Below, one piece after another: positions 3,470-35,450 of a stretch of DNA of 42,777 nt (its first letter is position 1; each line of letters opens with the position of its first letter). Source of the stretch: Octopus sinensis. Lineage: Eukaryota. The stretch spans positions 1-42,777 of the forward strand of contig NW_021834658.1 in NCBI RefSeq assembly GCF_006345805.1, given 5' to 3'. Position numbers and translations under genes: made by a program. The notes under the pieces were generated by a model. That model made no database searches, was not told the DNA's origin, and saw only the letters and a list, made by a program, of their open reading frames with translations.

Positions 3470-3580
3470 AGCTATTCCCAATGGCTTTTCGCCACCCGTG
3501 CCACCAAAAGTGAATAATATCAACGTTAAAGGCGCGAAATTGTAATGATCTTTTGGGCGTTGACTGACGAGGAATAAGCT
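3470..3580 (+). ncRNA. Candidate rearranged (non-circularly permuted) hammerhead ribozyme
   Basis: Triplet AUA 3517-3519, GAAA 3536-3539, CTGACGA 3564-3570. Pairings: 3470-3478/3571-3580 (one bulge), 3498-3502/3531-3535, 3504-3510/3550-3556, 3514-3518/3539-3543, 3520-3526/3557-3563. Confidence 0.65.
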
Positions 3581-3700
3581 ATGAATTTTCTGCTTGTTAT
3601 GCTTTTTTAAAAATATTCCGTTTGTTGTGTTTTCGTTATATCATTTAAACACACACACACACACATACACGCACATAGTTATGGTATATTCCATTAGGAA

Positions 3701-3821
3701 CTTGGCGGAGTACTATATAAAGCTCGTCCACCTTCAGAATTTACCAATATTATCCGGTAGCATTATTATATACTTCCAGGTTTATACAGCGGTAATCGTC
3801 GTGTGTGAATTTCTCCGTAGA
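3701..3821 (+). repeat. ~120-bp block present three times (also ~4767-4887 + and ~5520-5640 -)
   Basis: CTTGGCGGAGTACTATATAAAGCTC...GTGTGAATTTCT.CGTAG is near-identical in all copies, each followed by (AT)n. Confidence 0.9.
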
Positions 3822-4447
3822 TATATATATATATATATATATATATATATATATATATATATATATTATATATATTATTATATATATATATATATATATA
3901 TATATATATACATATATATATACATACACACATAGATATATGTGTGTGTTGTGTGTATCCGCACCCACTTGCACACATATATACTCACTCACACACAACG
4001 TATATATCCACACGCACACACAAGTACACACACAAACACACGTACGCATACACAAACAGAAAGGGGGGTAAAGAAAGAAGAAAGAATACGAAGTGCATTG
4101 AGGAAGAATCAAACACGGCTTAAGGTCATTAAGGCTTTTCAAGATTAGAAGATTTGGCTTAAGAGAGCCGCTTGAGGGAGGGGGAAGTGGGGAATAGTCT
4201 GTGTGTGTGTGTCGGTGTGCAGATAAAAGGATACGGGGAAGAAGAGGAAAGGATATTGGTAGACAAGAACAGAGAATATATGACCATAAAAATGTAGAAT
4301 ATGTGTTTTTAAATATATTAAGATATATATATATATAGACATATATAAGCGTGCATATACTCATCCATATATACATGCATCAATACACATATGTATGCAT
4401 ATGTGTATGTATGTATATGTGTATGTATGTATGTATGTATGTATATA

Positions 4448-4560
4448 TAGGACAATCAGTAAGTTCTCATAATAGAACTCAGAGTTTCAAATGCCTAGAA
4501 GCTTTTACCTCTGGCATTTGAAATTTTGAGTTCTGTTATGACAACTTACTGATTGTTCTG
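4448..4560. mobile_element. ~113-bp palindromic MITE, Tc1/mariner-like and TA-flanked; mirrored at about 5837-5949
   Basis: CAATCAGTAAGTTCTCATAATAGAACTCAGAGTTTCAAATGCC is an imperfect inverted repeat of GGCATTTGAAATTTTGAGTTCTGTTATGACAACTTACTGATTG; TA on both sides. Confidence 0.75.
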
Positions 4561-30894: not shown

Positions 30895-33800
30895 TTCAAT
30901 CTGTATAGATATGCGACATTGCCTTTCCTGAACACTATATGGAATCGGGGTGGGTGGAGTGGCAGAGAAGGGGAAAATCCTAGACCACGTGATGCTGTGC
31001 TTTGCTATCATATTCTTATTGTATTGTTAGTGTTCTTATGGTTGAGTCGAGTTTTTATGTTGTTGCGTTGTGGTGCACCTTCTTTTATGTTGTGTTTTGA
31101 ATTTGTTGTGATGTTGTTTTGTATTGTGTATGTAGTGTTGTTTTTGTTAACATTTTTCGGATGTATTGTATCATGTTTTAATGTTGCTTTATTGTCAGAT
31201 TGTCGTTGTACTTATGTGCCCCGTTGTGTTTTGTTGTATTGTTGTTGTAATTGTTGTTGATGCTGTTGTTGTTGTTGTTGCTCTGGCTGTTAATGCTGCT
31301 AATGCTGCTGCTGCTATTTTTGTTGTTGTTGCTGTTGCGAGTTAATTTGTCCATTTTGAAAACTGTAGGAACTGTGACATTTGCAATGTCCATTTGAATG
31401 TTTTCACCAGGATTTCCTTATCCATTGTTTTTACTTTGCATAAAATGAGAGCAAGAGTGGGAGGGTAAGAGAGAGGTGAAGGAGAAGGAGATAAAAAGAG
31501 AGAGAGAAAGAGAGATTGAGAGATGAGGCGGTAGGAGGTGATAATGGCAGTTGGAAAGAAATGGGGAAGAGAACCAGAGTGGGGAAAGAGATAGATGGCG
31601 CACGGGAAAGAGATAAAGTGTGAAAGGAGAGAAGGAGAGCGTGTGCAAGAAGGTTAGGGTAAGAGATACACAGAGAGAGAGAGAGAGAGAGAGAGAGAGA
31701 GAGAGAGTAAGAAAGATATAAATCCGATAATGACAGTAAGCGAGAGTATGAGAGAGAGAGAGAGACTGAGAGAGAGAGAGAGACTGAGAGAGAGAGAGAG
31801 AGACTGAGAGAGAGAGAGAGACTGAGAGAGAGAGAGAGAGGTGTAGAGAGAAAGACAAAGAAAGAGAGAGAAGGAGATAAATGTTGAAATTGAGGGAGTG
31901 ATAAAGACAGATAGAGCTGGCAAAAGATATCTGGAAGCCGTGACTGTGTATGTGTGACCGTGTGTGTATGGATGTGTGTGCATGTGCATGTGTACGTGTG
32001 AATGTATGCATGTATGTGCATGTGCATGTGTGCATGTGTGTGCACGCATGCGTGCGTGTGTAAGTGAATAGAATGGTGAAAATGAATGTTGACCAGCAAA
32101 CCTGGTCTTGCCACAGCCGTACAATGGTCCAGTTGACATTTGCGCCATATTGTAGCATGTATATATCTTAATAAAGAACTGTTTACCTCTTAACACATCA
32201 CTTGAGAAAGAGTCTCCTTATCTGGTCAACCAGCCGGCTGGAAATAACAGCCAAGACAACTCTAAAATACCAACAAACCGTCTAACCAGGAAATACATTA
32301 CAGCAAGTGACGCTACCATTTTGGTGGTGAGGTCTTTAACGGAACGTCTGCTGGATCAAGGTTTCATCTACGGTTAAACAATAACACTAACAACAATATT
32401 ACTTTATGTATGTATTGTATGTTTACGTATGTACATCTACGTTTCACTCTTGCCGCTGCTGCTACTGCTGCTGCTGCTGCTCTTGTCATTGTTGTTGATG
32501 TTGTTTCGGTAGTAATGATAATGGTAGTGGTGGTGGTGGTGGTGGTGGTGAAGGAGGAGACAGAGGAGGAGTGGATGAATTTTTTTTTTTGGCGTTCTTG
32601 TTTTGTTGTCTGGTTTTGTGATTCATTTCTGAATCTCACAATTGTCATTTTTCTATCAACCACCATTTCGCAATTCTCCCCGCCGCCCGTATGCCCTCTT
32701 CCTCCTCGTCCTCCTCCTTCTCCTCGTCCTCCTCCTCGTCCTCCTCCTCCTCCTCCTCCTCTTCCTCGTCATCATCATCATCACCAACACCACCACAATC
32801 ACAATCATAGTAACCACTATCACTGTAAACATCATCACAATCAACATCACAACCACCACCATCATCATCATCATCATCATCACAATCATCATCATCATCA
32901 CACCGCTCTTACAATAAGAAAAGTTGCTTTCAGTTATTGATTTCTGCAGACCAAATAGCTTCAACACATATACATAAACAAACACACATACAGACACACT
33001 TACACAGACACACTTTCAAAGGTACGTACACAAGCAGACATATATATATACAAATACACATATACATACATACATTCGTCAAAAGATACATAACGTACAT
33101 AAACACGCGCACAGATACGTATACGCACTCATACACATGCGTATAAATGTACACAGACATATTGATAAATAGAAAGATAGATAGAGAGAGAGAGAGAGAG
33201 AGAGAGAGAGAGAGAACGATAGATAGATGATAGATAGATACACAGCCGGGCCAACGGATCTCTCTCTTTCTCTCTCCTCCTCTCTGGAAATATATATATA
33301 TATATATATATATATATATATATATATATATATGCATATATACATACATATATATACATATATATATATACATATATATATATATGTATGTATTATATAT
33401 AATATATATATATTACATATATATATATATATATATATATATATATATATATATATATATATATATATATATATATATATAATATATGTGTGTGTGTGTG
33501 TATATATATATATATGTACATACATACGCATATGCACAATTACATATAGAAATGTGTTTATGCGAATGTATGTATAGCCCTACAAGCACGCTTGAATTTA
33601 AAACGCAAAGAAAAAATTATCATATAATAGATGCTATTCATATATATTCGCGCAACATATCACTGTACAGGTATAGATAAATAGATATACATAAACACAT
33701 TACATATATTTACATACATATACATTTGAATATATATATATATATATATAAACATTGATATATGTGTGTGTTTGTGTGTGTATTTATGTATACATACATT

Positions 33801-34740
33801 CATACACACACACACACACACACACACAACATATATATATATATATATATATATATATATTAATATAATATATATAATACGCGCGCGTACATACTAACAC
33901 ACGTACTGAAGCATGTATGCATATAGATAGATATAGGTTATAGGTGCAGGTTAAGATTAAAATGATAATGGAAATATTTTTTCAATAACGAATGCTTTAC
34001 TAAGGTGTCAAAATATTTCCCCAATATCGTGGAAATAATTTTCTTGTTCTTTTTTTTCAATTAATTTCCAAATTTCTTTACGTTTTTCGTAATTATTATT
34101 ATCATTATCATTATCATTATCATCACGACGACGACCACCACGACCACCACCACCACCACCATCATCATAATCATCATCATCATCATTATTATTATTATTA
34201 TTATATTATTATTATTATTATTATTATTATTATTATTATTATTTGTATTGTATAATGATACATTTCTTTTTACTTGCTGTGCACTTTAAAGCAAACATAA
34301 ACAAAATAAAAACTTTAGCTCACTTTGTTCATTATGTAAAAAGAAAAAAGTAAGTTATTAAATGTATTTATATATTTTAGCCTCTAAATATAAATATTTT
34401 TAAAGGACAGAATATCATTAAGTACATAAATCTTTATTTAATAAATGTGGCATAATTATGAAGATTTTCGAATTTCATTTAGTATTTTTCACAAATTTTT
34501 AAAAATTATACTTATAAACTTTTCGAGGCGCACCTAGCTACAGTGTGCTATAGAAAACTATTTGTATTTGCTAACCATTACTGCAGAAAATAGAATATTG
34601 GTTAAAATTTAATTTTCCGGTGATATTTTCTTATTCATTTAGCTTTGAGAAGTACACAGCAATTCAGGAAGGCATCCATGCAACTGGCGCGTCTTAGAAA
34701 TTAGTAAAATCTTGACAGAAATTACTTTCTCTTCCGTAAG

Positions 34741-34842
34741 TTCCTCACTATGCCTCGCTATGCTTCGCTATATTTCGCTATGCCTCGCTATATTTCGCTA
34801 TGCCTCGCTATACCTCGCTATGCCTCGTTATGCCTCATTATG
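34741..34842. repeat. 10-bp minisatellite (TGCCTCGCTA), about 10 copies
   Basis: Directly visible with variant units. Confidence 0.9.
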
Positions 34843-34979
34843 TTCCATCCCACAAATCTGTAGCAGAAACAACACTGAGAAACACTGCAGCGATGCAATG
34901 TGAAGTTCGTTGGAATAACATTATTTTGATGTGGTGTGAAAGAAGGAAAGTTGTAAATATAGTCGAAAATTTAACCGTA

Positions 34980-35450
34980 AACCTCCTCGAGGAATGTAAA
35001 GACGCAGGCTGGAAAGTGGAACATTTTCCAATCGAAGTCGGATGTAGAGGGTTCGTTGGACACAGTGTGAGACGACTGTTGTTATCGTTAGGCCTAACTC
35101 ATCGTAAAGTCAATACCACCATGACCGATATCCAATCTACAGTGGAGAAAGCTAGCCACTGGATTTGGTTAAAAAGAGACGATGAGCGATGGCTAGAAAG
35201 ATATTGAGCTTAATTTGATAACCAGCTGATCTAGCTTCATATCAGTGAGGGGGGCCGGTGCGCATTGATGCCGTCGAGAGGTAGGCCCAGAAACGGCGCG
35301 CATTCTCTCCTGATGACCCCATACACTTGCTGACTTCCGGTATACGGAGCTTTTGGTTGGTAGCACTTGCATGTGCAAGTTGTTTGCAAGACATCTGCGA
35401 TATGTGTCCCTTGTGGTACATATTGCAGGAGATAAACAGGGACTTGTGTA
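34980..35450 (+). mobile_element. 5'-truncated HERO-like (RLE-type) non-LTR retrotransposon 3' end; coding to stop at 35207, then 3' UTR
   Basis: LLEECKDAGWKVEHFPIEVGCRGFVGHSVRRLLLSLG..VEKASHWIWLKR. The P.EVGCRGF and AS.W.W.KR motifs are typical of HERO C-termini. The 3' boundary is approximate. Confidence 0.85.
35242..35333 (+). ncRNA. Candidate rearranged hammerhead ribozyme in the HERO-like 3' UTR
   Basis: GUC 35273-35275, GAAA 35290-35293, CTGATGA 35310-35316. Pairings: 35242-49/35326-33, 35252-56/35284-88, 35257-63/35298-304, 35270-74/35293-97, 35276-80/35305-09. Confidence 0.7.

What the first reader, a model, noticed from the sequence alone, without database searches (positions are those of the whole stretch)
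3470..35333. A shared rearranged, doubly pseudoknotted hammerhead architecture in three unrelated repeats
Seen in sequence: 3470-3580(+), 35242-35333(+) and 14571-14790(-) have no obvious primary similarity outside the core boxes, yet show the same strand order. The order is outer stem 5', PK 5', extended helix III 5', helix III-U(H), helix I 5', PK 3', GAAA, helix III 3', extension 3', helix I 3', CUGANGA, outer stem 3'. Established: in hammerhead types I-III the cyclic order is CUGANGA, GAAA, NUH. Here it is NUH, GAAA, CUGANGA, which no circular permutation produces. I recall that natural non-circular hammerhead permutations have been reported, so novelty must be checked. Inference: different stem sequences in the same layout look like covariation, suggesting a self-cleaving module that processes retroelement RNA ends in several cephalopod element families.
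Basis: partly seen in the sequence, partly recalled or inferred. Interest (0 to 1): 0.9.

Follow-up and report, generated by a model that had tools for sequence, protein, structure and literature searches.

The report
Four-way-junction hammerhead in jumping-gene tails
Two of the three flagged repeats carry an RNA fold, shared by many jumping genes in this genome and in marine sequence collections, with the scrambled core of a hammerhead self-cutting RNA plus a four-way junction not found in the papers searched; it likely cuts and re-circularises the elements' RNA, which would explain why one large group of these elements seemed to lack such a ribozyme.

Summary
Motifs A (3470-3580) and B (35242-35333) are real. 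C (14571-14790, minus) lacks the cleavage nucleotide in all 30 aligned copies and lacks the junction.

The S-G-C order is published (type SGC, Eckert 2023). New: stem II cannot form between the strands flanking CUGANGA and GAAA. An upstream strand-hairpin-strand pairs with both, with no linker bases: a four-way junction inserted between A9 and G10.1. It appears in 16 of 22 distinct families picked on the core alone, against 59 of 880 shuffles. A structure-only search returned the core letters unasked.

B is the 3' UTR of an R2-superfamily (HERO-like) LINE. The fold also ends octopus Naiad elements, reported to lack hammerheads. Five long LINE copies are partial tandems with a constant junction; in four, both repeats share private variants. 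This fits reverse transcription around a circular RNA, or template jumping.

Cleavage is untested, and both window copies are damaged. This scan noted similar rearranged cores on other DNA; one was judged a docking fold.

Verdict: new variant of a known kind, interest 0.85.

The parts
3470..3580 (+). Motif A, a damaged copy of the four-way-junction SGC hammerhead. Outer strand X1 3470-3478 pairs with 3571-3580; hairpin H 3479-3497; stem II strand X2 3498-3502 pairs with 3531-3535; extension 3504-3510 pairs with 3550-3556; k-turn pattern 3511-3513/3544-3549; helix III 3514-3518/3539-3543; N17 3519; helix I 3520-3527/3556-3563; GAAA 3536-3539; CUGACGA 3564-3570. Predicted cut 3519/3520.
3050..3640 (+). 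Family A element: ~520-nt non-coding unit with a partial tandem repeat of its 3' part at 3050-3137. Sister copies end ~120 nt after the predicted cut, at (TA)n. Penelope/retrozyme-like by architecture; parent ORF not found.
35235..35320 (+). Motif B, damaged (9-nt deletion of X1 near 35233; A in place of C at 11.1). Hairpin H 35235-35250; X2 35251-35256 pairs with 35284-35289; extension 35258-35263/35298-35303 with a 6-nt bulge 35264-35269; helix III 35270-35274/35293-35297; C17 35275; helix I 35276-35280/35305-35309; GAAA 35290-35293; CUGAUGA 35310-35316; 10.x strand 35317-35320. Predicted cut 35275/35276.
34915..35396 (+). 5'-truncated copy of an R2-superfamily (HERO-like) LINE: C-terminal end of the RT/endonuclease ORF (stop 35205-35207), then a ~190-nt 3' UTR with no poly(A). 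Start coordinate approximate.
14571..14790 (-). Motif C, a look-alike without a cleavage nucleotide: helix III 14712-14707 with 14663-14658, helix I 14706-14701 with 14596-14591, GAAA 14666-14663, CUGAAGA 14590-14584, outer stem 14790-14785 with 14576-14571. No N17, no four-way junction.
14393..14909 (-). Family C element: 5'-truncated copy of a ~560-nt non-coding repeat with fixed 5' and 3' ends, flanked by (AAT)n. SINE-like; a Dong/R4-type partner is recalled, not tested.

Best explanation
A and B are damaged genomic copies of a conserved RNA fold with the hammerhead core in S-G-C order and a four-way junction in place of stem II; it is predicted to be a self-cleaving ribozyme that likely cuts and re-circularises retroelement RNA. 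SHOWN: helices I and III; the core letters; an upstream strand X2 whose first G pairs with C11.1 as the real stem II; a second helix and a hairpin inserted between A9 and G10.1 with no linker bases; a bent helix III extension; position 70-300 nt from element 3' ends; partial-tandem insertions whose two repeats share private variants. INFERRED: (1) the junction stacks as core-on-stem II and outer helix-on-hairpin, keeping the normal active site; (2) a transcript of a more-than-unit copy is cut at both ribozymes after N17; (3) the unit RNA is ligated into a circle; (4) the element's RT primes internally ~120 nt downstream of the ligation site and copies around the circle. This gives insertions that keep an intact ribozyme and sometimes exceed one unit. 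C is likely a disabled or unrelated look-alike.
For: Junction in 16 of 22 distinct families chosen on core plus helices I and III only (15 with zero linkers), against 30 of 462 swapped and 59 of 880 shuffled upstream regions. First stem II pair is G-C in 15 and G-U in 1 of 16 families, like canonical G10.1-C11.1 (PMC4209133), while the pair after A9 takes five types. Structure-only search of 73 LINE 3' UTR segments with no core letters asked: 27 solutions, 15 with exact GAAA and CUGANGA; all 14 scoring 26 or more have U16.1 and H17. MAFFT alignment of 8 B-lineage motifs: 15 of 31 pairs change on both sides, 0 of 500 shuffles reach that. 27 core hits in 80 metagenome loci, 26 on the sense strand, against 0-6 in shuffles. 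N17 is C, A or U in the high-scoring structure-only solutions. Partial tandems with a seamless constant junction in 3 family-B and 2 second-family loci. Private shared variants 10, 4, 2, 6 and 0 in those five loci; 0.3% divergence within L390 against 2-5% between loci. The same circle model was proposed for Penelope elements (PMC4209133, Discussion). Type-SGC ribozymes cleave in vitro (PMC10085705).
Against: No cleavage assay, and no raw RNA reads could be laid. 0 of 30 B copies start at the predicted cut, and A, D, E and F show no clustering of 5' ends one unit upstream either (small numbers, biased selection). No described hammerhead has more than 1-2 nt between CUGANGA and stem II (PMC10085705), so the junction might distort the core. 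Only 23 of 67 LINE loci with enough downstream sequence pass the strict core test. 6 of 22 representatives lack the junction under my rules. Shuffled UTR segments also gave 16 of 73 structure-only solutions, 8 scoring 26 or more; their core letters were not printed. In 600 kb of unselected genome, core hits (3) did not exceed shuffles (1-3). Template jumping explains the tandems equally well. One of five tandem loci (L395) shows no private shared variant.
Confidence: 0.6

Rival explanations
1. The fold is a hammerhead-derived docking structure for the element's RT/endonuclease and does not cut; tandems come from the RT jumping between linear RNAs of the same source element.
For: It lies in the 3' UTR, where R2-type proteins bind their RNA (established knowledge, recalled). 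All insertions keep it intact. Template jumping by R2 RT is known (recalled). An earlier scan note reached this view for a similar LINE-tail motif (e1-7941993).
Against: Catalytic letters are held across unrelated stems and across two retroelement orders, LINE and Penelope-like, whose proteins are unrelated in their RNA-binding parts. Junctions are letter-exact in 3 of 3 and 2 of 2 loci, while 53 solo 3' ends are ragged over about 2-8 nt.
Confidence: 0.2
2. It is an active ribozyme, but it serves another step: it frees the 5' end of the next unit in tandem or read-through transcripts, or destroys excess RNA. Insertions come from the uncut linear fraction.
For: HDV-like ribozymes process R2-type elements out of co-transcripts (PMC7650587 passage). 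Type-SGC ribozymes are slow (PMC10085705), which would leave uncut RNA.
Against: No copy begins at N1.1, and the upstream partial copies in tandems run through an intact ribozyme. Within-locus identity of the repeats needs a same-template step.
Confidence: 0.17
3. The helices are chance pairings picked by a permissive descriptor.
For: Core hits in unselected genome were not above shuffles. Structure-only solutions occur in shuffles.
Against: Swap and shuffle controls, covariation in an unfitted alignment, strand and position bias, and recurrence in published Naiad consensus sequences.
Confidence: 0.03

Closest known systems
Type-SGC hammerhead ribozymes (HRIMA-1 and variants; Eckert, Friedrich, Weinberg and Weinberg 2023, PMC10085705)
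   Same: S-G-C block order, two pseudoknots, the same core letters, helices I and III, and a ~3-nt linker from stem I to the strand before GAAA.
   Different: There stem II pairs the GAAA-side strand with the CUGANGA-side strand. Here each pairs with a separate upstream strand, around a hairpin. The stem I-II helix is replaced by a kinked helix III extension. The published examples I saw come from metatranscriptome contigs; these sit in retrotransposons.
Minimal and type I hammerheads of Penelope-like elements (Cervera and de la Pena 2014, PMC4209133) and Hydra-clade motifs (PMC8557442 supplement)
   Same: Position near the element 3' end or pseudo-LTR, conserved G10.1-C11.1, an extra element between positions 9 and 10.1, and more-than-unit insertions.
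   Different: Canonical block order, one extra nucleotide instead of a two-helix arm, and weak helix III needing dimers; the motif here has a full helix III in one copy.
Non-LTR retrozymes (PMC7229834; bioRxiv 10.64898/2026.07.22.740005)
   Same: Non-coding tandem units with a hammerhead, linked to Penelope-like elements (families A, D, E, F resemble them in layout).
   Different: Units here are about 0.5-0.85 kb, mostly 1 to 1.x copies, with a permuted core. Circular RNA was shown for retrozymes and not here.
Naiad clade of Penelope-like elements (Craig et al. 2021, PMC8557442)
   Same: Family G of this genome matches the 3' end of Naiad_Obim and Naiad_Ovul as read in the supplement; (TA)n insertion and partial tandems.
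   Different: The paper reports no detectable hammerhead in Naiads (its metadata flag only 'HHR_core' or 'HHR_half_core' in 17 rows); this fold was not recognised.
HDV-like ribozymes of R2/R4-type non-LTR elements (cited in PMC7650587; details recalled)
   Same: A self-cleaving motif in an R2-superfamily element.
   Different: A different ribozyme class, at the 5' end; here a hammerhead core lies in the 3' UTR.

Membership tests
Type-SGC hammerhead | 5'-3' order: cleavage site, GAAA, CUGANGA | tested here: met
   A, B and 22 family representatives; C has the order but no N17
Type-SGC hammerhead | Conserved core C3-A9, G12-A14, A15.1-U16.1, H17 | tested here: met
   Returned by a structure-only search; B core exact in 29 of 30 copies; A has CUGAUGA or CUGACGA in 19 of 30 old copies. 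Not met for C (no N17).
Type-SGC hammerhead | Stems I and III with covariation | tested here: met
Type-SGC hammerhead | Stem II formed between the strand before GAAA and the strand directly after CUGANGA | tested here: not met
   0-1 bp in most A hits and all B hits; 0 of 27 B core hits reach 3 bp; replaced by the four-way junction
Type-SGC hammerhead | Extra helix joining the stem I side to the stem II 3' side | tested here: not met
   That strand pairs in the helix III extension instead. Three distant loci (L319, L345, L350) look as if they have it (read by eye).
Type-SGC hammerhead | Site-specific self-cleavage after N17 | not testable with these tools
   Only contigs were available
Hammerhead types I-III and PLE min-HHR | Circularly permuted canonical block order | tested here: not met
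   Order is S-G-C; no Rfam match
HERO clade of R2-superfamily LINEs (host of B) | Single ORF of ~1100 aa with RT and a C-terminal restriction-like endonuclease | tested here: met
   RVT_1; best solved relatives are R2 proteins; PD..E.. pattern; 1050-1130-aa frames in the genome
HERO clade of R2-superfamily LINEs (host of B) | Phylogenetic grouping with named HERO elements | not tested
   No named HERO sequence was at hand; the label is recalled from C-terminal motifs. An Octopus vulgaris annotation lists two recently active Hero families and two were found here.
Naiad PLEs (host of family G; possible mobiliser of A) | Sequence identity with a Naiad consensus | tested here: inconclusive
   Met for G; a short A-specific word, and words for D, E and F, were absent from the supplement
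Non-LTR retrozymes | 170-400-nt tandem units with a type I hammerhead | tested here: not met
   Units of ~520-850 nt with a permuted core
Non-LTR retrozymes | Abundant circular RNA | not testable with these tools
   contigs only

The most novel reading that the evidence does not exclude
This is a seventh natural hammerhead topology: a four-block permutation with a two-helix arm inserted into the supposedly uninterruptible CUGANGA block. It is active and is the missing ribozyme of Naiad elements. It is also used by an R2-superfamily LINE clade that retrotransposes through a ribozyme-made circular RNA with internal priming, instead of from a linear 3' end.
Probability: 0.42. Interest if true: 0.95.

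Novelty: new variant of a known kind. Interest (0 to 1): 0.85.

Why it matters
It would break a stated rule of hammerhead architecture (no more than 1-2 nt between CUGANGA and its stems) and add a perfect four-way junction next to a well-studied active site. It would move non-circular hammerhead permutations from rare metatranscriptome RNAs into thousands of genomic copies in animals. It offers an answer to why Naiads, which dominate many invertebrate genomes, seemed to lack the hammerheads of other Penelope-like elements. For LINEs, it makes a sharp testable case that an R2-superfamily element uses a circular RNA template, which bears on target-primed reverse transcription and on R2-type gene-insertion tools. 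Each step can be tested with short natural sequences in an ordinary cleavage assay.

Tried and rejected
Rfam: whole window (top 150 of 258 rows seen, microsatellite noise) and the three motifs: nothing relevant.

Canonical stem II in A and B: rejected. A canonical 4-bp stem II is possible in E, F, L285 and L286, but the junction helices there are longer and linker-free.

Family C with N17: the pattern was 10-fold enriched over its control (871 vs 84), but none of the 15 loci read was family C; most were an unrelated SINE-like repeat.

5' truncation at the cut site: none. Viral contigs: no relatives.

RNA evidence: no RNA holder listed as such. Contigs of four runs cover the element, and the tandem junction appears in one guessed-RNA run and the DNA run, which cannot tell a circle from genomic tandems. 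A 146-nt skip over the motif in three guessed-RNA runs has unknown letters between and is probably subfamily divergence.

Parent ORF for A, D, E and F: not found; nearby Hydra- and Neptune-type ORFs are separate insertions.

The automated k-turn test found 8 of 22 representatives and missed A and D because those representatives are mutated; per-column counts show the pattern in 22-24 of 30 A and 28-30 of 30 D copies.

Literature: ten searches found no description of this junction or of hammerheads in HERO 3' UTRs. Repbase Reports and most subscription journals are not searchable. The Eckert supplement was seen only in five passages ('octopus' 0 hits), so an overlap with its variant alignments is not fully excluded.
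Full report
CONTEXT. The window is a whole 42.8-kb contig of a 2.72-Gb genome. It is an octopus by inference: a protein fragment's only named hit is from Octopus bimaculoides, and one repeat matches published octopus Naiad consensus sequences. 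I call the three flagged motifs A (3470-3580, +), B (35242-35333, +) and C (14571-14790, -). Each belongs to a repeat family; 30 loci of each were fetched and aligned.

1. OBSERVATION. All three have the order cleavage-site block, GAAA, CUGANGA. A descriptor needing only this order plus helices I and III found B and, when N17 was allowed to be absent, C. It found A after a G-C filter was relaxed. In 250 locally shuffled windows a B-type hit never occurred; a C-type hit occurred once at 6+6 bp and three times at 5+5 bp. C has no nucleotide between helices III and I in 30 of 30 copies, no junction in 31 core hits, no N17-bearing subfamily in 15 loci fetched for that purpose, and RNAfold does not form its core helices. 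A natural type-SGC variant missing bases at the site did not cleave (PMC10085705). C is therefore set aside. Rfam has nothing at any motif.

2. THE REAL ARCHITECTURE. In A and B the strand after CUGANGA cannot pair with the strand before GAAA; 0 of 27 B core hits reach 3 bp. Sister copies show what replaces stem II. An upstream segment X1-H-X2 is laid out with no spare bases: X1 pairs with the strand directly after A9, H is a hairpin, and X2 pairs with the strand directly before G12. RNAfold recovers the outer helix, H, the extension and helix III for B, and the outer helix, H and X2:11.x for A. The helix III extension is bent: a k-turn pattern in A (22-24 of 30 copies), in D (28-30 of 30) and in 8 of 22 representatives; a 6-7-nt bulge in the B lineage; a purine-rich loop in E and F (motif names recalled).

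3. IT IS GENERAL. Scanning the fetched loci and 600 kb of unselected genome revealed further families D, E, F, G, H and a second LINE family H2. In the unselected 600 kb the raw count (3) did not exceed shuffles (1-3), though two of the three hits were families with thousands of first-look candidates. B's upstream frame is the C-terminus of ~1000-1180-aa RT proteins whose closest solved relatives are R2 proteins; the HERO label is recalled. An alignment of that C-terminus fetched 80 metagenome loci. They gave 27 core hits, 26 on the sense strand, against 0-6 in 20 shuffles; 23 of 67 loci with at least 250 nt after the stop pass the strict test, and several more are near misses.

4. CONTROLS. 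Of 22 distinct representatives chosen on the core alone (7 own-genome families, 15 metagenome loci after removing near-duplicates from 26), 16 have the junction, 15 with zero linkers. Swapped upstream regions gave 30 of 462 and shuffled ones 59 of 880, 23 with zero linkers. Conversely, a search using only the five helices and the junction lengths gave solutions in 27 of 73 UTR segments, 15 with exact GAAA and CUGANGA. All 14 scoring 26 or more have U16.1 and N17 of C, A or U, 13 have GAAA and 13 CUGANGA; these 14 include two near-duplicate pairs. Shuffled segments gave 16 of 73 solutions, whose letters I did not print. Across 16 families the first X2:11.x pair is G-C in 15 and G-U in 1, while the pair after A9 takes five types. 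So X2 supplies G10.1, and the outer helix plus hairpin are an arm inserted between A9 and G10.1. An unfitted MAFFT alignment of 8 B-lineage motifs shows double changes at 15 of 31 pairs, in all six helices; 0 of 500 shuffles reach that, and slid controls give 1-4 (related sequences can inflate such counts). Six representatives lack the junction by my rules: D has two U-U pairs at it, G and H were damaged copies, and three distant loci look closer to published type SGC with a 2-bp stem II (read by eye).

5. NAIADS. Craig et al. state that Naiads lack detectable hammerheads (bioRxiv 2021.04.23.441226, passages and sections 6 and 11); their metadata flag core words in 17 rows. Family G is the 3' end of Naiad_Obim and Naiad_Ovul; 6 of 20 old G loci pass the strict core test and 3 the junction test. 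Reading supplement passages by eye, the same X1-H-X2 fold is present in nine Naiad consensus passages: three near-identical ones, the two octopus families and four others. A tenth is a looser variant. Several nematode Naiads have canonical-order cores instead. I saw places 1-59 of 62 for one core word and only places 4-12 for the other three, so this is a lower bound and was not computed.

6. HOW IT LIKELY WORKS. Insertions are not cut at the predicted site: 0 of 30 B loci picked by the downstream fragment begin there. All families end at a near-fixed point downstream of it, about 120 nt for A and B, 145 for D and at least 195-295 for E and F. Long LINE copies give a clue. Three of 12 long family-B copies (L389, L390, L392) and two of six H2 copies (L395, L409) are a 5'-truncated partial copy followed by a full copy. 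The junction is letter-exact and the same across loci, while 53 solo ends are ragged over about 2-8 nt of that junction sequence, with no poly(A). The two repeats within a locus share private variants (10 in 976 columns for L390, 0.3% apart against 2-5% between loci; 4, 2 and 6 in three others; none in L395). They were thus copied from one template or from sister RNAs of one source. The reading that also explains a conserved catalytic core is the cycle proposed for Penelope elements (PMC4209133, Discussion) and shown in part for retrozymes (PMC7229834, passages): cut at two ribozymes, ligate to a circle, prime internally, copy more than one turn. Cleavage, ligation and internal priming are inferred. 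Template jumping between linear RNAs fits the tandems as well. One D-like copy has 20 A-to-G against 3 T-to-C differences on the motif strand (35 A, 45 T), as expected if an A-to-I-edited RNA of this polarity was reverse-transcribed. Public runs were held only as contigs and cannot show RNA ends.

7. COMPARISON AND NOVELTY. The S-G-C order is type SGC of Eckert et al. 2023 (PMC10085705; outline, sections 4 and 13, part 1 of 18, parts 3-4 of the text and five supplement passages). That paper states that no known alignment has more than 1-2 nt between CUGANGA and the adjacent stems and builds its six permutations on that rule. The motif here fails that defining feature, so it works like a type-SGC hammerhead but is not a member. 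Ten searches found no description of the junction or of a hammerhead in HERO 3' UTRs. Other papers seen: 10.64898/2026.07.22.740005 (part 1 of 5 and a word search), PMC13282606 and PMC7650587 (passages), PMC4209133 (passages). This scan noted similar cores on other DNA: e1-7941993 (LINE tail, judged a docking fold because its helices conflict with the SGC model) and e1-7350160 and e1-7354453 (Penelope-like elements). I saw only their short summaries; the junction found here would resolve that conflict if it is the same motif.

8. VERDICT. Observation partly confirmed (A and B yes, C no). My odds: structure real about 0.95, self-cleaving about 0.7, circular-RNA cycle about 0.5 overall. New variant of a known kind; interest 0.85.

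Noticed in passing
L146:8667-8819; two more copies in L190: Family D-like copy with 20 A-to-G against 3 T-to-C differences on the motif strand (L190: 9:2 and 8:2): likely an A-to-I hyper-edited RNA that was reverse-transcribed into the genome.
   Followed up: partly
L319, L345, L350 (metagenome loci, 290-500 nt after the ORF): Distant relatives of the B LINE carry an S-G-C core with a covarying 2-bp direct stem II and an apparent stem I-II helix, closer to published type SGC; possible ancestral or sister form.
   Followed up: partly
window 9870-14173, minus strand: About 20 head-to-tail units of ~130 nt, each followed by (AAT)n; look like stacked 3' ends of a Dong/R4-type LINE (label recalled).
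   Followed up: no
window 4071-6326: A ~2.2-kb near-perfect palindrome (arms 97-100% complementary, centre near 5200): inverted duplication or assembly artefact.
   Followed up: no
window 17829-17945, minus strand: Diverged fragment of family C (positions 106-275), ending in the same non-C sequence as copies in L122 and L162: perhaps a related chimeric repeat.
   Followed up: no
L381 (G000:C3:74338000-74346600): Tandem and inverted Hydra-type Penelope-like elements with canonical-order minimal hammerheads, next to family D copies.
   Followed up: partly
PMC8557442 supplement, nematode Naiad consensus ends: Several nematode Naiads have canonical-order hammerhead cores with long inserts, also not reported as hammerheads in the main text.
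   Followed up: no
window ~2900-3045: Short decayed coding fragment resembling an L1/Tx1 ORF (resemblance recalled) directly upstream of the family A element.
   Followed up: no
family C 5' ends (L069, L078, L087): Short repeated duplications of the first 15-25 nt at the element's 5' end, typical of repeated template switching at the end of reverse transcription.
   Followed up: no
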